Positions 14,503 through 22,967 of a stretch of 32,000 nt of DNA are shown here, in pieces. The notes below the pieces were generated by a model that saw nothing but the letters and a program-made list of their open reading frames with translations, ran no database searches and was not told the DNA's origin. The stretch is from Candidatus Thorarchaeota archaeon (GTDB lineage Archaea; Asgardarchaeota; Heimdallarchaeia; Hodarchaeales; Hodarchaeaceae): contig JBHLRO010000002.1 of assembly GCA_048882505.1 (NCBI GenBank), positions 30,001-62,000 on the forward strand, in the 5' to 3' direction. A program made the translations under genes and the position numbers. Position 1 is the first letter of the stretch, and every line of letters begins with the position of its first letter.

Positions 14503-15000
14503 TCAAATGGGTTCGAAAAGGAGCCAAAAATGGATAGCAAGCCCGAGCAAAATACTCATAGCTACCAATCGGATGGTGCTGCCGATTAACCGTTCCCTAA
14601 TCGTTCGATCTTGACTTGTTTCAACAAAAAAGATTAGCCAAATTGTAGAGAGTATTCCTAAGATGCTAAACATGAGGGCGAGCGGAAAATACAGACCAGG
14701 ATCTAAAATAGGATTCCATGGCCCTGGTCCGCCTGCGATTGTGCTGGTATTGGTATCTTCAGTCTCAGATGTGGTAGTGGATGTTGTAGTGTTTGTTGTA
14801 TCCGTGGTATTTTCTTGGGTAATCACTAATGGTAATTTAATTTTACTAAATTCGTTACCATAGAGGAAATGAGGAGAATCTTGCACTTCCTGGTTGCCAG
14901 ATATAATCAGGGTGGGATAAGGATTTAACACTAAACTAGCAAGGATGATTAATGGCATTAACTTACCTAAAACTTGTGAGAAGGTCTTGAGGGTCATCAT
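14503..15000 (-). CDS. Hypothetical membrane-anchored protein with Thr-rich linker
   Basis: N-terminal hydrophobic signal, TTDTTNTTTSTTTSET low-complexity linker, two C-terminal TM helices. Confidence 0.7.
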   Translation of the reverse strand: MMTLKTFSQVLGKLMPLIILASLVLNPYPTLIISGNQEVQDSPHFLYGNEFSKIKLPLVITQENTTDTTNTTTSTTTSETEDTNTSTIAGGPGPWNPILDPGLYFPLALMFSILGILSTIWLIFFVETSQDRTIRERLIGSTIRLVAMSILLGLAIHFWLLFEPI

Positions 15001-17348: not shown

Positions 17349-19703
17349 TCAGAAGAATGAGGTGACATAAGCCCAAGAAATCGCGGCTTTTTGAATTCCT
17401 GAGGTTCCCAAGTTAACCTCGGCATAGAAATATATTGTACGAATTCCCAATTGGGTGATATCTATGTTGAAAGAGATAGAGGCCACTCCTTGGCTATCAG
17501 ATTCATCAAAACCAAGAAAAATACCAGAACCGTTTTCTCCTGATATGCCGGCGTAGAAACTAAAATTGGCTCCTTGGGAGGGTAACCACATGACCGCCGA
17601 AGGTGTTTTAATAATCCGAACTGAGACAGTGACCCCGACCCCGTTAGCAAGAGTATAGGGGCTAAGTGGGTCGTTACTGGCCGTGTAATTAGTGATTACT
17701 CGCCCAAAAATCCAGTCTCCACTACCGTTTGTTTCCATGTCTTGATGGTCGAGACCCGCCTGGAAAAGCCCCTCGTTTTCCAAATCATAATCAGGGCGGA
17801 TAGTAATGGATTGCCCCAAGGACGAAGTTGGGACGATATCGGTAGGGGGGGTCAAACCATATTGACTTGCCAGGTAGGACAACAGGGGATCAAAGCTTAC
17901 CCATTCCGCTCGATAGCCATCGGTAGGATCCAGCATGGGAACCAACACTTCGGCCCAGGCATGGAGAAAACGCATGGTAACTGCACGGTAGGGATAATAA
18001 TCAATGGAATCATTCCCTCCTAGATATCCGATAACTACTCTGGTAGGAATCCCTTGCAGTCGATTGATGATGGCATAAGATCCCGCGAAGTGAAGAGATA
18101 CTCCACCTTCGGTGCCATCGTGGGGACGACGGAAGAACCACTCATTAAAATCTTCATACGGGGCGGGATGCGCGTTTGCCACTCCTGGTGCAAAACCAAT
18201 TTGTGTTCCTAACCACATGTTCATATCAAAAGTGAAGTTTTCGAATTCGAGCATGTTATTATAGGCTTGCGCAAAGACCGAAAGCCCTGAGTCATTCCAT
18301 TCGGTTGCATTTCCATACACAAAGGGGGCCCAGTCCTGATATCGCGAAGAAGATGTATCTATATAGGGGAGATTTGTCATCTGAGGCGGTAAGCTACCTG
18401 TTATATTCGGAAGTTGAAGATACAAATTTTTGATGGCGGCCCACTTATTCGCATCATTACCTAAAGCCTGCAAATAGTCGCCTTCAGATCTCGTCAAGGA
18501 GAATGCGGCGGCCGATTGAACGTCTACCTTCTCGTAGTCAATATCATAAGTAAAAAGCCCCGTTTCATCGGATGTAGTATCAAGTAAGAGGTTGGCGTCC
18601 ACTCCAAGCAAGTCATCGGAATGGGAGAGCGGGAATACCTCCCGTGCATTCTTGGTAGTCGCACTTAGCGAATTTCCATTGCTATCAAAAAATTGGAAAG
18701 AACTAGAGTCGATATACGAGCCTTTCTGCCCATTCCAAGTAGCAGGAAGATAATTTTTAAAGTTCGTATTAACGGTGACATCCGCAAGGGATGAATTATG
18801 GTCGAGAGGGAGATGTACAGTAAATCTTGCAGTTCGGTCAGCAGGATCCACAAGTTGCGAATAGTCACTTGAACTAGGGGCCCCTGTGGATAATATTCGT
18901 TTTACTTTCTGAGTAGGATTCCAATCTGTCGTATACGGGGGTTTGGCTGTGTACTCATAAGATTCGAAAGTTCCAAGCCGCCAATAGGCGGTAGGACTTT
19001 GGGGATTAGCTTGATCACTAGTGACATTGAAGAGGATGGTGTCTGGGGCACTTAGACCCGCAGTGAATTGGTCGAGAAGGTTTTCTAACAGGTAAGTAGC
19101 ATCCCATGTTGGGGTGTTGAACATAGACCAATCGATTTCTTTATCCGTATAATCAGGAAATAGGTTCTGTTGCCGAGGGGTGTTTAAACCAGCAATCTCT
19201 GTTAGATATGTGCCTAAAAACAGGAGCAATACGAGGATGGTGGGCAGAAGATTCAGTAGATTTCGGGTAACGTTTCTTTCTGCAAGTTCCTCTAATCTAG
19301 AACGAGCAACCTTAGTTGCAACCAAAAGGGCGAGAGTAAGTAAAGAGGTGACCTGGAGAAGCGAAAATGCAGTGGATGAGGCATTCTCGACTTGTTGAAC
19401 ATAATAAAATCCAGCAATCTGCAGAGATATACTTCTCACAATCTCCACGGCAAATGCAAACCCGTACGGCCCTAACATCTTACGAGAGCGGCGTAGAAGA
19501 AACCATTCTGGAATCGAGACAACTGAAAAGAATAAAAATCCAGGAATCGCGGTCTGGAAGAAGTTGGCTTCTTGAGAATTCGTCCCCACCATTGAAGGGA
19601 TAAATGAAACGGCAGTTAACAGACTGGTAAAGGCACTGAGTAAAATAAGATATCGTATTGAATTGGGGGCAGGATCACGTCCAAAAACATCGTCCGAACT
19701 CAT
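17349..19703 (-). CDS. Membrane-anchored transglutaminase-like (TgpA-type) domain protein
   Basis: About 5 N-terminal TM helices, YWRLGTFESY, GGVSLHFA...RLQGIPTRVVIGY, HAWAEV, WVSFDP. Confidence 0.8.
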   Translation of the reverse strand: MSSDDVFGRDPAPNSIRYLILLSAFTSLLTAVSFIPSMVGTNSQEANFFQTAIPGFLFFSVVSIPEWFLLRRSRKMLGPYGFAFAVEIVRSISLQIAGFYYVQQVENASSTAFSLLQVTSLLTLALLVATKVARSRLEELAERNVTRNLLNLLPTILVLLLFLGTYLTEIAGLNTPRQQNLFPDYTDKEIDWSMFNTPTWDATYLLENLLDQFTAGLSAPDTILFNVTSDQANPQSPTAYWRLGTFESYEYTAKPPYTTDWNPTQKVKRILSTGAPSSSDYSQLVDPADRTARFTVHLPLDHNSSLADVTVNTNFKNYLPATWNGQKGSYIDSSSFQFFDSNGNSLSATTKNAREVFPLSHSDDLLGVDANLLLDTTSDETGLFTYDIDYEKVDVQSAAAFSLTRSEGDYLQALGNDANKWAAIKNLYLQLPNITGSLPPQMTNLPYIDTSSSRYQDWAPFVYGNATEWNDSGLSVFAQAYNNMLEFENFTFDMNMWLGTQIGFAPGVANAHPAPYEDFNEWFFRRPHDGTEGGVSLHFAGSYAIINRLQGIPTRVVIGYLGGNDSIDYYPYRAVTMRFLHAWAEVLVPMLDPTDGYRAEWVSFDPLLSYLASQYGLTPPTDIVPTSSLGQSITIRPDYDLENEGLFQAGLDHQDMETNGSGDWIFGRVITNYTASNDPLSPYTLANGVGVTVSVRIIKTPSAVMWLPSQGANFSFYAGISGENGSGIFLGFDESDSQGVASISFNIDITQLGIRTIYFYAEVNLGTSGIQKAAISWAYVTSFF

Positions 19704-19836: not shown

Positions 19837-22332
19837 TCAGTTATCTGTTTCAAAGAAGAAGATGGAACAAAACACACACAACCGGTATGGTTTTTTTCCT
19901 CGTTTGAAAATAGATAATGTCTGACGGCCACACCTTGTACAAGGTGCTCCGACAGAAACATTGGTTCCCTTACGAGGATGAGGAGCCTTCCAGGTATGTT
20001 TACAATTACTACACATGACTTGGGTTACTGGAGATGAATCTTGCTCAATCCGAACGTGCACCTCATGACCACAATGCGGACAATCGCCAAGATACTGTTC
20101 GGGGGGAGTAAATTCCCAGGATCCTGAGATAGGACAATCAGTACGATCACATTCACTGCAAAACCAGGGTTTATCTTCTGTTCCTTTGGTAGACCAACAA
20201 TATGGACATAAAATCCATTTATGATATCTAGTGGAGACAAGGAGAGGGATTCCATTACAGATTCGGCAGAGTTCATCTGTAATGGTTTCAAGGTTCCCTT
20301 TTTTAGGAAGAGGAAGGCTGGTTTCGCATAATGGGTTGGAACACCGTAAGAATCGAGATCCTGCCTTTCCTTGGTGTAAAACCAGGCTTCCCTGACATTC
20401 AGGGCATATTCCTAGATGTTTTCCGATTCCAGTCATTGATTCAATGCTTCTGGCTAGTGTGGAGAAGATTTCCTCTTGATTCGCTTTTAATTGTTGCATA
20501 CCACGAGTTGTAACGTCCATAACCAGCTTATCAACATCTTCGGGAGTCTTTTCATGGGTTCGAATGTGTTGTGTCCAGGTTTCAACTCGACCACGAATTT
20601 CGGGGAGGATTAGTTCCCCTGCATTTTGAGTTAAAACCTGATAGAGCGCTAGTCCGAGCGAGGTTGGAACTAAGTTTCGCTGGGGGCCCTGTACAACAGT
20701 ATATTGCCGTTTTTGTACGGTGTCTATATGCGATGAACGAGTGGCATCGGTCCCTAGGTTTAGTGCCGCCATTTTCGTAATAAGATGGGCCTCGCTCCAC
20801 AATTGGGGAGGCGTGGTAAATCCATGGTGTTTATAGGTCTCAAAGAGAAAACTGGTTCCTTTCTTTAGCGGTGGAAGTTCTTGGATGGAGATAGTTTTGT
20901 ATTTATAGAACTTTAAGAACCCAGGCTCCAACAATTTTTGGCCTTTCGCAATGAATTCTTCCGAAGCCGCCGTTATAACGAGATATTGATTGGTTACCTT
21001 GGCATCGATATGGACGGTAGCCAAAAAACGCCAAACAACGTACACATAGATAGCCCATGCATGATTGATCATACTTGGGGTTTTGGAAAAAGATTTTGCA
21101 ATTTCAGGGCGTGTAGCTGCCTTGGCAGGACGAATTGGTTCATGATCCTTTGTGAATCGCCCTTTACTTGGATTTGTGGTTCCACCAATGGCAATGGCCT
21201 CTTGGGCAGCATTACCGAATTCCGGATGGCCAACGAATTTATTGGTCAGCGGGGTCAAGTCTTTTTGAAGGTAATATGAGCTCTCAGTTCTAGGGTAGGT
21301 AATAAATCCGTTATTGTAGAGTCTCTCTGCAATATCAGCAACTCTTTTCGGACTGATTTTAAGGAACTGTGCACATTGGGACTCGAGCGCATCGGTATCT
21401 AACGGGATGGGCCGTTTTATAAACGCGATCTCCTCGTTGTAATCCGTAACTAGACATTGCTGTGTGTGCCTAAGTTCAGATAAAAGGGAATCTATTTCCT
21501 CTTCATCGTATGAAGGATTACCTTTCCAATCCAGAAACAAAGAATCCTCATCAGTGAGCTGAAGCTTAAGGGCTAATCGCCAGAATGTTTGAGGGTTAAA
21601 CTCTTTGTTTTCTAAATACCGATGCGTGATCAACCATAATACTGATGTTTGACAGGGTCCATATGAAACTAGGGTATTATGAATGCCTTGATTCTGGACT
21701 CCAACCGTAAGGAAACGAGTTAGTGATGACCCCATACGGAGATCTTGTTTTCGAAGAGAATCGACCTGCTTTATCCAATCCCAATCCAGAGTACCTTGGG
21801 TCTCGAAAGCGCGTTTAAGGGCCATCGGACCAGTACTTGTGAATTGCATACGACCATGTTTGATTCTTTTATTTATCCCTGTGACGATATCTACGACCTG
21901 TCGACCTATTGATTCCCCATGGCCATCCCAATCGGTTGCAATTATAATGACATCAGAATACCGCCCTATTTCTTGGACATGGATGACCATCGATTCCCGA
22001 ATGGGGATTTCGATTGGTTCTAACTCCACTAGATCCAGTGGGTCTGAATTATGCCAATTACTTTCCTTGTCATATGGCGGGGGGTATTCGTATTGAAGGA
22101 CATGGCCCGTGACGCTGGTGATGATCAGTTGATCGTCCTCGGAGAGGCGGTATTCGTCACTTCCAATCTTAAAAATTATTTGTTGGGTGGAAATAGGTGT
22201 TTTATATACATAATTGTACTTGGTTTTGCCTTTTGCCCCCTTGAACTTTAATTTATATACAATTGAAAAACCACGTACCAGCGCGCGTGCGATTGATGGT
22301 TTTTCTGCAAAAATGGATACTGTGGCGACCAT
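19837..22332 (-). CDS. Type IA DNA topoisomerase (topoisomerase III-like) with C-terminal zinc ribbons
   Basis: TOPRIM AEKPS and ATDWD, VTGH, SYGPCQ, catalytic ITYPRTES, LGTDAT; several CxxC pairs at the C-terminus. Confidence 0.93.
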   Translation of the reverse strand: MVATVSIFAEKPSIARALVRGFSIVYKLKFKGAKGKTKYNYVYKTPISTQQIIFKIGSDEYRLSEDDQLIITSVTGHVLQYEYPPPYDKESNWHNSDPLDLVELEPIEIPIRESMVIHVQEIGRYSDVIIIATDWDGHGESIGRQVVDIVTGINKRIKHGRMQFTSTGPMALKRAFETQGTLDWDWIKQVDSLRKQDLRMGSSLTRFLTVGVQNQGIHNTLVSYGPCQTSVLWLITHRYLENKEFNPQTFWRLALKLQLTDEDSLFLDWKGNPSYDEEEIDSLLSELRHTQQCLVTDYNEEIAFIKRPIPLDTDALESQCAQFLKISPKRVADIAERLYNNGFITYPRTESSYYLQKDLTPLTNKFVGHPEFGNAAQEAIAIGGTTNPSKGRFTKDHEPIRPAKAATRPEIAKSFSKTPSMINHAWAIYVYVVWRFLATVHIDAKVTNQYLVITAASEEFIAKGQKLLEPGFLKFYKYKTISIQELPPLKKGTSFLFETYKHHGFTTPPQLWSEAHLITKMAALNLGTDATRSSHIDTVQKRQYTVVQGPQRNLVPTSLGLALYQVLTQNAGELILPEIRGRVETWTQHIRTHEKTPEDVDKLVMDVTTRGMQQLKANQEEIFSTLARSIESMTGIGKHLGICPECQGSLVLHQGKAGSRFLRCSNPLCETSLPLPKKGNLETITDELCRICNGIPLLVSTRYHKWILCPYCWSTKGTEDKPWFCSECDRTDCPISGSWEFTPPEQYLGDCPHCGHEVHVRIEQDSSPVTQVMCSNCKHTWKAPHPRKGTNVSVGAPCTRCGRQTLSIFKRGKKPYRLCVFCSIFFFETDN

Positions 22333-22370: not shown

Positions 22371-22967
22371 ATGCCCCCAATTTCAAAGAAAAATTTAAAG
22401 TTAAAGGATTTTTACAGTTCCGCCTTGAATACTGAAACGGTGGAATCTCGAATTTCAACCTCATTACGAGTTTATATAACTGGTGTTACTGGTACAGGAA
22501 AAACTACGGTAGCAGAAAGACTTTCCCAGCTTCTAAATCTCCCCTTTTTAGAAATCAATACTATTGTACTCGATGAAGGGTACTATCTTGGCTATGATAT
22601 TACTCGAGATACAGTCATCATTGATGAGGAGCTGCTGGCGCCGCATTTGGAGATGTTGGTAACAAAACAGTCTCGTATTGGTCTGGTTGGAGGGATTGTT
22701 TCTCTACGAACACCATTCGATCTCCTTATTCTTCTTCATTGCCAGATTCCAATTTTAAGATATCGACTACACGCACGGAACTATTCTTCTGCAAAGATTG
22801 AGGCTAATGTAGAAGCGGAGATCATGAATGTTCTCTATTATGATGCTCTCGAGCTCCTTTCTGTAAAACATATCATTGAGGTTTCTACTGGCGATTCATC
22901 TGTCGATGAAACATGTCAACAGATCATTTCTTTAGGACAAAAGTATTTGTTGGGCGAACTGATATGA
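22371..22967 (+). CDS. Adenylate kinase AK6/Fap7-like P-loop kinase
   Basis: YITGVTGTGKTT, LRYRLHARNYSSAKIEANVEAEIM lid motif; start codon uncertain. Confidence 0.8.
   Translation: MPPISKKNLKLKDFYSSALNTETVESRISTSLRVYITGVTGTGKTTVAERLSQLLNLPFLEINTIVLDEGYYLGYDITRDTVIIDEELLAPHLEMLVTKQSRIGLVGGIVSLRTPFDLLILLHCQIPILRYRLHARNYSSAKIEANVEAEIMNVLYYDALELLSVKHIIEVSTGDSSVDETCQQIISLGQKYLLGELI

What the first reader, a model, noticed from the sequence alone, without database searches (positions are those of the whole stretch)
19837..22332. Topoisomerase IA with eukaryotic Top3-type signature motifs and a TOP3B-like zinc-ribbon tail
Seen: SYGPCQT (21649-21666) where bacterial and most archaeal enzymes have SAGRVQ, plus DLRMGSSLTRFLT, LGTDATRSSHI and about five CxxC/CxxC modules at the C-terminus. 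Established from memory: eukaryotic Top3 has SxGxCQ (human TOP3B GPCQTP), DLRIG.AFTRFQT and GIGTDA, and TOP3B has a Cys-rich tail and also acts on RNA. Inference: this is an archaeal relative of the eukaryotic Top3 lineage, possibly with RNA topoisomerase activity.
Basis: partly seen in the sequence, partly recalled or inferred. Interest (0 to 1): 0.6.

Follow-up and report, generated by a model that had tools for sequence, protein, structure and literature searches.

The report
Asgard Top3, cousin of eukaryotic TOP3
This is an intact DNA-untangling enzyme (type IA topoisomerase) of a Hodarchaeales Asgard archaeon. It is a close archaeal cousin of the common ancestor of the two eukaryotic TOP3 enzymes and keeps their ancestral five-zinc tail, but it is not an archaeal TOP3B, and the relationship is already published.

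Summary
It is a type IA topoisomerase. Its best solved relative is human TOP3B (phmmer 1e-75), far ahead of Sulfolobus Topo III (2e-31) and E. coli TopA (1e-28).

The genome is Hodarchaeales. The gene is native: its neighbours are conserved, and 19 of 20 sampled genomes of the family carry it.

On a core-only tree it lies in an SxGPCQ clade with eukaryotic Top3. TOP3A and TOP3B are each other's sisters (100/99). Forcing this clade with TOP3B alone is rejected (AU p = 0.0005). Which Asgard clade is nearest to eukaryotes is unresolved.

The tail has five zinc modules (C4, C4, C3, C4, C4). They align module by module with TOP3B (E 1.4e-15) and equally well with protist TOP3A (E 6.7e-18). So the tail is ancestral to both, not TOP3B-specific. 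The RGG box is absent, and no RMI1, Tudor or RecQ homologue was detected.

In five relatives, including a closed genome, this enzyme is the only type IA gene. It therefore most likely does the housekeeping DNA job.

The Asgard-eukaryote Top3 link is published (PMC12680538). This scan reached the same conclusion on three other Hodarchaeales genomes.

The parts
19837..22332 (-). Complete CDS of the 831-aa type IA topoisomerase (P0001), stop codon included
   Evidence: Pfam Toprim + Topoisom_bac + Zn_ribbon_Top1
21838..22323 (-). Toprim domain (aa 4-165) with the metal-binding acidic residues E10, D134, D136 and E140, plus K11
   Evidence: Pfam PF01751 at aa 7-165; these residues are invariant in alignment A1 across Hodarchaeales, another Asgard clade and TOP3B
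20533..21777 (-). Type IA core, domains II-IV (aa 186-600)
   Evidence: Pfam PF01131, E 4e-84; same coordinates in the genome search; AF2 model pLDDT 89.5, Foldseek TOP3B core rmsd 3.4 A and TOP3A core 2.9 A
21706..21744 (-). DLRMGSSLTRFLT motif (aa 197-209)
   Evidence: aligned to the TOP3B motif DLRIGCAFTRFQT
21649..21666 (-). SYGPCQ signature (aa 223-228), which marks the archaeal-eukaryotic Top3 clade against SxGRVQ in other type IA enzymes
21295..21297 (-). Catalytic tyrosine Y346 in GFITYPRTES (corresponds to TOP3B Y336)
   Evidence: alignment to 9cah; Y346, R348 and E350 invariant in A1
20725..20757 (-). LGTDATRSSHI motif (aa 526-536), domain IV
   Evidence: G527, T528, D529, A530 and H535 invariant
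20326..20406 (-). Zinc module 1, C4 ribbon (C643, C646, C664, C669)
   Evidence: Pfam PF01396, E 3.7e-9
20197..20268 (-). Zinc module 2, C4 (C689, C692, C709, C712). TOP3B has a D1C3 site at this position
   Evidence: TOP3B motif types from PMC12318649
20134..20160 (-). Zinc module 3, C3 (C725, C728, C733; CxxCxxxxC), as in TOP3B motif 3
20002..20082 (-). Zinc module 4, C4 (C751, C754, C774, C777)
19867..19941 (-). Zinc module 5, C4 (C798, C801, C819, C822). The protein ends nine residues later, with no RGG box

Best explanation
The gene encodes a native, intact type IA topoisomerase of a Hodarchaeales archaeon. It belongs to an archaeal-eukaryotic 'Top3' clade marked by SxGPCQ. It branched off before the eukaryotic duplication that gave TOP3A and TOP3B, so it is a cousin of their common ancestor, not an orthologue of either.

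Mechanism (inferred from conserved residues and from the solved TOP3B and TOP3A structures): the Toprim acidic cluster (E10, D134, D136, E140) and K11 bind Mg2+. Y346 in domain III cuts one strand and forms a 5'-phosphotyrosine link. The domain I-III gate opens and a second strand passes into the central hole. The break is then resealed. The 198-residue tail binds five Zn through C4, C4, C3, C4 and C4 sites. By analogy with TOP3B, it holds the nucleic acid upstream of the cut and makes the enzyme processive.

Some Hodarchaeales have this enzyme as their only type IA gene. Its main job is therefore most likely the general one for DNA: relaxing negative supercoils and unlinking single-strand-containing catenanes, hemicatenanes or R-loops. 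Activity on RNA is possible but not indicated by any specific feature.
For: Identity: Pfam Topoisom_bac 4e-84, plus Toprim and Zn_ribbon_Top1. Catalytic residues are invariant in A1. The AF2 model has pLDDT 89.5, and its best PDB match is the TOP3B-TDRD3 entry 9cah_A, E 2e-52.

Placement: core-only tree of 81 rows x 598 columns under LG+C20+F+G4. The SxGPCQ clade has support 99/96. A 56-row clade of Asgard lineages plus eukaryotes has 100/98. Eukaryotes are monophyletic at 100/99 and TOP3B at 100/100. AU tests reject Hod+TOP3B (p 0.0005) and Hod+TOP3A (p 0.001).

Tail: all tail Cys are invariant or nearly so across Hodarchaeales, a 910-aa Asgard clade and TOP3B. Cys spacing is the same in TOP3B and in protist TOP3A. 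hhalign over the whole tail gives TOP3B 178 columns at E 1.4e-15, and protist TOP3A 185 columns at E 6.7e-18. The tail-only model superposes on the solved half of the TOP3B tail, 104 columns at rmsd 2.9 A and 29% identity.

Native gene: the PGK...MBL-AAA_18-Top3-transglutaminase...UbiA gene order is kept in a closed 4.9-Mb Heimdallarchaeial genome, and the Top3-transglutaminase pair is kept in a 42%-identical relative. The gene is present in 19/20 genomes of the family and 2/2 of the sister family. G+C is even across the window.

Housekeeping role: the ordinary SxGRVQ paralogue is found in only 15/24 genomes of the order. In five genomes, including a single-contig one (96% complete) and a 99%-complete one, this enzyme is the only PF01131 gene.
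Against: No biochemical data exist for any member of this clade. The mechanism is transferred from TOP3B, TOP3A and E. coli enzymes. The sister of eukaryotes among the Asgard SxGPCQ clades is unresolved: four alternatives have AU p 0.18-0.39. So 'cousin of the ancestor' cannot be sharpened to 'closest relative'. The ultrafast bootstrap had not fully settled (correlation 0.987). The AU test used LG+F+G4, because the mixture-model test did not finish. 'Only type IA gene' rests partly on incomplete MAGs.
Confidence: 0.85

Rival explanations
1. It is an archaeal orthologue of TOP3B specifically. On this reading the TOP3A/TOP3B split predates eukaryotes, or the gene came from a TOP3B donor.
For: TOP3B is the best PDB sequence hit (1e-75, against 1.6e-59 for TOP3A), and the alignment runs into the tail. 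The five-module tail matches TOP3B.
Against: TOP3A+TOP3B are sisters at 100/99 with the Hodarchaeales clade outside. A forced Hod+TOP3B clade costs 147 lnL units, AU p 0.0005. Protist TOP3A has the same five modules. Pfam's Zn_ribbon_TOP3B model does not match; the generic PF01396 does. Module 2 is C4, not D1C3, and there is no RGG box.
Confidence: 0.03
2. The gene is recent eukaryote-to-archaeon transfer, or eukaryotic contamination of the assembly.
For: It resembles eukaryotic proteins more than typical archaeal ones.
Against: Identity to any eukaryotic protein is only 26-30%. The flanking genes are archaeal housekeeping genes in a conserved order. The gene is present across the order. There are no introns, and G+C is even. 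All Asgard clades lie outside the eukaryotic crown.
Confidence: 0.01
3. The Asgard SxGPCQ enzymes were acquired by ancient transfer from stem eukaryotes (proto-eukaryotes) into a few Asgard lineages, rather than being the source of eukaryotic Top3.
For: Distribution in Asgard is patchy. Hodarchaeales and six small families are positive. None was found in about 60 genomes of other families of the same class, or in the two largest families (0/76 and 0/68) at E <= 1e-60. PMC12680538 lists Top3 among genes with probable transfer around eukaryogenesis. PMC12395588 argues for such transfers in general.
Against: Rooted on SxGRVQ enzymes, the successive outgroups of the Asgard+eukaryote clade are archaeal: a Methanomethylovorans-type enzyme, then Thermoprotei, with support 99/96 and 97/86. 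So the clade looks archaeal in origin. Within Hodarchaeales the gene is syntenic and vertically inherited.
Confidence: 0.1
4. It is chiefly an RNA topoisomerase, an archaeal counterpart of TOP3B's mRNA role.
For: The review PMC12318649 recounts E. coli topoisomerases cutting RNA in vitro, and reports that the TOP3B core alone still cleaves RNA. In this genome a second, ordinary Topo III could cover DNA.
Against: There is no RGG box or other RNA-binding module. In five relatives it is the only type IA gene, so it must serve DNA there.
Confidence: 0.05

Closest known systems
Asgard 'Top3' paralogue related to eukaryotic Top3 (Heimdall clan, Sifarchaeia, Wukongarchaeia), PMC12680538, Extended Data Fig. 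4f
   Same: Same gene family and same conclusion at coarse level: a second Top3 in some Asgard lineages groups with eukaryotic Top3. My tree recovers Hodarchaeales and Wukongarchaeota members beside eukaryotes.
   Different: In the main text and legends I could read, that paper does not describe the C-terminal domain and does not count Top3 among its structural eukaryotic signature proteins. Its supplementary text was not available. Added here: the five-module tail is shared with both TOP3A and TOP3B, the TOP3B-only placement is rejected, and the enzyme is the sole type IA gene in some Hodarchaeales.
Human TOP3B (PDB 9cah, 5gve)
   Same: Best sequence and fold match. Same catalytic residues. 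Same number and order of zinc modules, including the C3 module CxxCxxxxC and the CPYC motif. Modules 1-3 superpose at 2.9 A.
   Different: Identity is only about 27%. Module 2 is C4, not D1C3. There is no RGG box. No TDRD3-like partner was detected. The protein is not inside the TOP3B clade.
Eukaryotic TOP3A (PDB 4cgy; protist TOP3A such as Naegleria gruberi XP_002672722)
   Same: The core superposes at 2.9 A. Protist TOP3A tails share all five modules.
   Different: TOP3A adds GRF-type fingers after the five modules, and opisthokont TOP3A has remodelled the tail. No RMI1 or RecQ homologue was detected here.
Ordinary archaeal Topo III (S. solfataricus 6k8n; the window genome's own paralogue P0260)
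   Same: Same type IA fold and chemistry. The first two zinc ribbons of the tail are shared.
   Different: It has SxGRVQ instead of SxGPCQ, sits in a separate clade, and lacks modules 3-5. NCBIfam archaeal topA models score far below their cut-offs on the window protein.

Membership tests
Type IA topoisomerase | Toprim domain with the conserved Glu and DxD acidic cluster | tested here: met
   PF01751 hit above its cut-off; E10, D134, D136 and E140 invariant
Type IA topoisomerase | Domains II-IV with the catalytic Tyr in domain III | tested here: met
   PF01131 at 283 bits against a cut-off of 35; Y346 aligned to TOP3B Y336; toroidal fold in the AF2 model, matching solved type IA structures
Type IA topoisomerase | Mg-dependent single-strand cleavage and strand passage | not testable with these tools
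   needs enzyme assays
Archaeal-eukaryotic Top3 clade (SxGPCQ) | SxGPCQ signature in place of SxGRVQ | tested here: met
   SYGPCQ at aa 223-228
Archaeal-eukaryotic Top3 clade (SxGPCQ) | Groups with eukaryotic TOP3A/B to the exclusion of ordinary archaeal and bacterial type IA enzymes | tested here: met
   clade support 99/96, inner clade with eukaryotes 100/98
TOP3B orthologue | Branches with TOP3B to the exclusion of TOP3A | tested here: not met
   TOP3A+TOP3B 100/99; Hod+TOP3B rejected, AU p 0.0005
TOP3B orthologue | Pfam Zn_ribbon_TOP3B (PF23546) at the first ribbon | tested here: not met
   no hit at E <= 0.1, PF01396 matches instead; PF23546 matches true TOP3B at 1e-20
TOP3B orthologue | Five zinc motifs in the order C4, D1C3, C3, C4, C4 | tested here: inconclusive
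   five modules in the same order, but module 2 is C4; the same layout occurs in protist TOP3A, so it does not discriminate
TOP3B orthologue | C-terminal RGG box | tested here: not met
   the protein ends nine residues after the last Cys; 0-2 RG dipeptides in Hodarchaeales tails against up to 11 in TOP3B
TOP3B orthologue | TDRD3 partner (OB fold plus Tudor) | tested here: inconclusive
   no PF08585 or PF00567 match in the genome, but these eukaryotic models had no positive control among prokaryotes
TOP3A orthologue | Branches with TOP3A; GRF zinc fingers; RMI1 and RecQ partners | tested here: not met
   Hod+TOP3A rejected, AU p 0.001; no GRF hit; no RMI1_N or RecQ_Zn_bind match
Canonical archaeal Topo I/III (NCBIfam TIGR01057, PRK07220) | Score above the curated equivalog cut-off | tested here: not met
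   351 bits against a cut-off of 635, and 240 against 458

The most novel reading that the evidence does not exclude
The Hodarchaeales Top3 already works as a two-part machine on DNA and RNA, like eukaryotic TOP3-RMI1 or TOP3B-TDRD3. Its partner would be an unrecognised OB-fold protein too diverged for Pfam, so the TOP3-plus-loop-inserting-partner design would predate eukaryotes.
Probability: 0.08. Interest if true: 0.7.

Novelty: new member of a known kind. Interest (0 to 1): 0.38.

Why it matters
It gives a concrete archaeal model for the enzyme that preceded both eukaryotic TOP3 paralogues. It also indicates that TOP3B's odd five-zinc tail is the old state and that the opisthokont TOP3A tail is the remodelled one. 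In some Hodarchaeales this enzyme is the only type IA topoisomerase, which suggests the eukaryote-type enzyme had replaced the canonical archaeal Topo III in these archaea. That is useful for eukaryogenesis and for topoisomerase biochemistry. But the phylogenetic link is already in the literature, and the scan has reported the same gene from sister genomes, so the gain is incremental.

Tried and rejected
(1) The treekit AU test under the PMSF mixture model did not finish in three runs. I replaced it with iqtree2 under LG+F+G4.

(2) Partner searches found nothing. RMI1_N (PF08585) gave E 0.52 in the genome and 0/24 in the order. TUDOR (PF00567) and RecQ_Zn_bind (PF16124) gave no match. The RMI1 and Tudor models have no prokaryotic positive control, so this shows only that nothing was detected.

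(3) Gene neighbourhoods of three homologues showed no conserved small partner gene.

(4) The VIA-align wide search with the tail model gave only propeller-blade-like matches at Z about 6 for modules 4-5. That is not meaningful.

(5) Foldseek with the tail alone gave no hit below E 0.001. The TOP3B match is at E 1.5e-3 but with probability 1.0 and rmsd 2.9 A.

(6) Supplementary text of PMC12680538 is not held. PMC9369019, PMC8185306 and PMC11894792 do not mention Asgard Top3 tails.

(7) I did not use complex prediction, because no candidate partner emerged.
Full report
**1. The observation**

Window 19837-22332 on the minus strand is one open frame of 831 codons from an ATG. All quoted motifs are present:
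- SYGPCQ, residues 223-228, at 21649-21666
- DLRMGSSLTRFLT, residues 197-209
- LGTDATRSSHI, residues 526-536
- a Cys-rich tail from about residue 640

Pfam finds Toprim, Topoisom_bac (E 4e-84) and one Zn_ribbon_Top1. NCBIfam's archaeal and bacterial topA/topB models all score far below their curated cut-offs. The protein is therefore a type IA enzyme that fits none of the standard prokaryotic equivalogs.

Against PDB sequences the order of hits is striking:

| PDB relative | phmmer E-value |
|---|---|
| human TOP3B | 1e-75 (aligned over residues 70-734, into the tail) |
| human TOP3A | 1.6e-59 |
| S. solfataricus Topo III | 2e-31 |
| E. coli TopA | 1e-28 |
| E. coli TopB | about 5e-17 |

**2. 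Whose gene it is**

The closest homologues (40-85% identity, about 70 clusters) are labelled Hodarchaeales, Hodarchaeota or Heimdallarchaeota. After a 910-aa Asgard clade at about 31% identity, the next hits are eukaryotic TOP3B at 26-28%.

The neighbours are ordinary housekeeping genes: GlmS-like, UbiA, a transglutaminase-like membrane protein, an AAA_18 kinase, an MBL hydrolase and PGK. The same order is found in a closed 4.9-Mb Heimdallarchaeial genome (CP070695.1). The Top3-transglutaminase pair persists in a homologue only 42% identical. G+C is even across the window.

In a sample of 301 genomes of the phylum at E <= 1e-60:
- 19/20 genomes of the same family and 2/2 of the sister family carry the gene
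- six other small families have 27-33%-identical versions
- about 60 genomes of other families of the same class had no match
- the two largest families had none (0/76 and 0/68)

The gene is thus native and vertically inherited in Hodarchaeales, and patchy elsewhere in Asgard.

**3. Phylogeny**

A FastTree of 217 non-redundant sequences gave the first picture. A careful tree followed, built on the core only with the tail columns excluded: 81 rows x 598 columns under LG+C20+F+G4 PMSF. The careful tree shows:
- An SxGPCQ clade (99/96) separates from all SxGRVQ enzymes. The SxGRVQ set includes the genome's own second type IA gene, P0260, on contig 8.
- Inside the SxGPCQ clade a Methanomethylovorans-type enzyme branches first and a Thermoprotei clade second (names).
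- Then comes a 56-row clade (100/98) that is a polytomy of the 910-aa Asgard clade, two small unnamed clades, Wukongarchaeota, the Hodarchaeales group and eukaryotes.
- Eukaryotes are monophyletic (100/99), with TOP3B (100/100) and TOP3A (100/94) as sisters.

AU tests under LG+F+G4:

| Forced grouping | AU p | Outcome |
|---|---|---|
| Hodarchaeales + TOP3B | 0.0005 (delta lnL 147) | rejected |
| Hodarchaeales + TOP3A | 0.001 | rejected |
| Hodarchaeales group as sister of eukaryotes | 0.39 | allowed |
| Wukongarchaeota as sister of eukaryotes | 0.33 | allowed |
| 910-aa Asgard clade as sister of eukaryotes | 0.26 | allowed |
| P0187/P0237 as sister of eukaryotes | 0.18 | allowed |

The protein is therefore a pre-duplication relative of eukaryotic Top3. 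It is not shown to be the closest one.

**4. The tail**

Cys spacing in the Hodarchaeales clade is C2C17C4C | C2C16C2C | C2C4C | C2C17-19C2C | C2C17C2C. TOP3B shows the same five blocks, with the first CxxC of block 2 reduced to one Cys. That agrees with the published motif types C4, D1C3, C3, C4, C4 (PMC12318649 and PMC11743793).

In an alignment of Hodarchaeales, the 910-aa Asgard clade and TOP3B, every tail Cys is invariant or nearly so. So are P676, G679 and the CPxC of block 2.

TOP3A of Naegleria, Thecamoeba, Paulinella, Rhodelphis, Diplonema and Apiculatamorpha carries the same five blocks, followed by extra GRF-type fingers.

Profile-profile comparison of the Hodarchaeales tail:

| Compared with | Aligned columns | E-value |
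|---|---|---|
| TOP3B tails | 178 | 1.4e-15 |
| protist TOP3A tails | 185 | 6.7e-18 |
| opisthokont TOP3A tails | 34 | 0.076 (not significant) |
| ordinary archaeal tails | about 75 (blocks 1-2 only) | 5e-19 to 8e-14 |

A tail-only AF2 model (pLDDT 85.6) superposes on the solved half of the TOP3B tail over 104 columns at rmsd 2.9 A and 29% identity. Blocks 4-5 have no solved counterpart.

The tail is therefore the ancestral Top3 tail. TOP3B kept it and added an RGG box. Protist TOP3A kept it and added GRF fingers. Opisthokont TOP3A remodelled it. The window protein ends nine residues after the last Cys and has no RGG box.

**5. How it most likely works**

Shown: the catalytic set (E10, K11, D134, D136, E140, Y346, R348) is conserved. 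The fold is the type IA toroid, with rmsd about 3 A to the TOP3B and TOP3A cores.

Inferred: the Mg-dependent single-strand cut goes through a Y346 phosphotyrosine. [quoted passage not shown] The zinc tail holds nucleic acid beside the cut, as described for TOP3B in PMC11743793.

One further clue comes from gene content. The canonical SxGRVQ paralogue is found in only 15 of 24 genomes of the order. In five genomes, including a single-contig 4.9-Mb genome (96% complete) and a 99%-complete one, the only PF01131 gene is the orthologue of the window protein. In those organisms it must do the general type IA work on DNA. That argues against an RNA-only role.

No RMI1, Tudor or RecQ-type partner was detected, and no conserved neighbouring partner gene was seen.

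**6. Comparison with what is known, and novelty**

PMC12680538 (2025) already reports that one eukaryotic Top3 clade is related to archaeal Top3 of the Heimdall clan, Sifarchaeia and Wukongarchaeia. It also reports that Top3 is a polyphyletic multicopy gene in some Asgard lineages. Two reviews of archaeal topoisomerases and a survey of type IA C-terminal motifs do not mention it.

Follow-up reports of this scan on three other Hodarchaeales genomes reached the same verdict. I reached mine before reading them.

New here, at most:
- the explicit rejection of TOP3B and TOP3A orthology
- the module-by-module ancestry of the tail
- the distribution by family across the phylum
- the finding that the eukaryote-type enzyme is the sole type IA gene in some relatives

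**Verdict**

This is a real, intact gene and a new member of a published clade. It is of moderate interest.

Noticed in passing
window 17349-19703 (-): A 784-aa transglutaminase-like membrane protein lies directly downstream of the topoisomerase. The pairing is kept in a closed Heimdallarchaeial genome and in a homologue only 42% identical. No functional link is evident.
   Followed up: partly
window 14503-15000 (-): A 165-aa ORF gives a weak, sub-threshold Pfam hit to Ost5, an oligosaccharyltransferase subunit (E 1.5e-4, 22.4 bits against a cut-off of 27.4). It is a possible eukaryote-like OST component.
   Followed up: no
window 22371-22967 (+): An AAA_18 nucleotide-kinase-like gene is transcribed divergently from the topoisomerase. 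The arrangement is kept in CP070695.1.
   Followed up: no
P0001 residues 823-831 (window 19840-19866) compared with alignment A2 columns 201-218: Most Hodarchaeales orthologues end with an extra Cys cluster (CxxxCxxCxxxC) after module 5. The window's subclade has lost it and ends in a Phe-rich stub.
   Followed up: partly
G000 contig 8, L002:1000-3300 (+): The genome's second type IA gene is the ordinary SxGRVQ archaeal Topo III (766 aa). It is missing from 9 of 24 genomes of the order, including a closed one.
   Followed up: yes
G127:C12:231911-234382 (relative genome): The orthologue in one relative carries a single in-frame TAA. This could be a sequencing error or a pseudogene.
   Followed up: no
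L009:8817-9323 (+), Asgard 910-aa clade locus: An uncharacterised 168-aa ORF with no Pfam hit sits directly downstream of the 913-aa Asgard Top3, on the same strand, with an LSM gene upstream. It was not examined as a possible partner.
   Followed up: no
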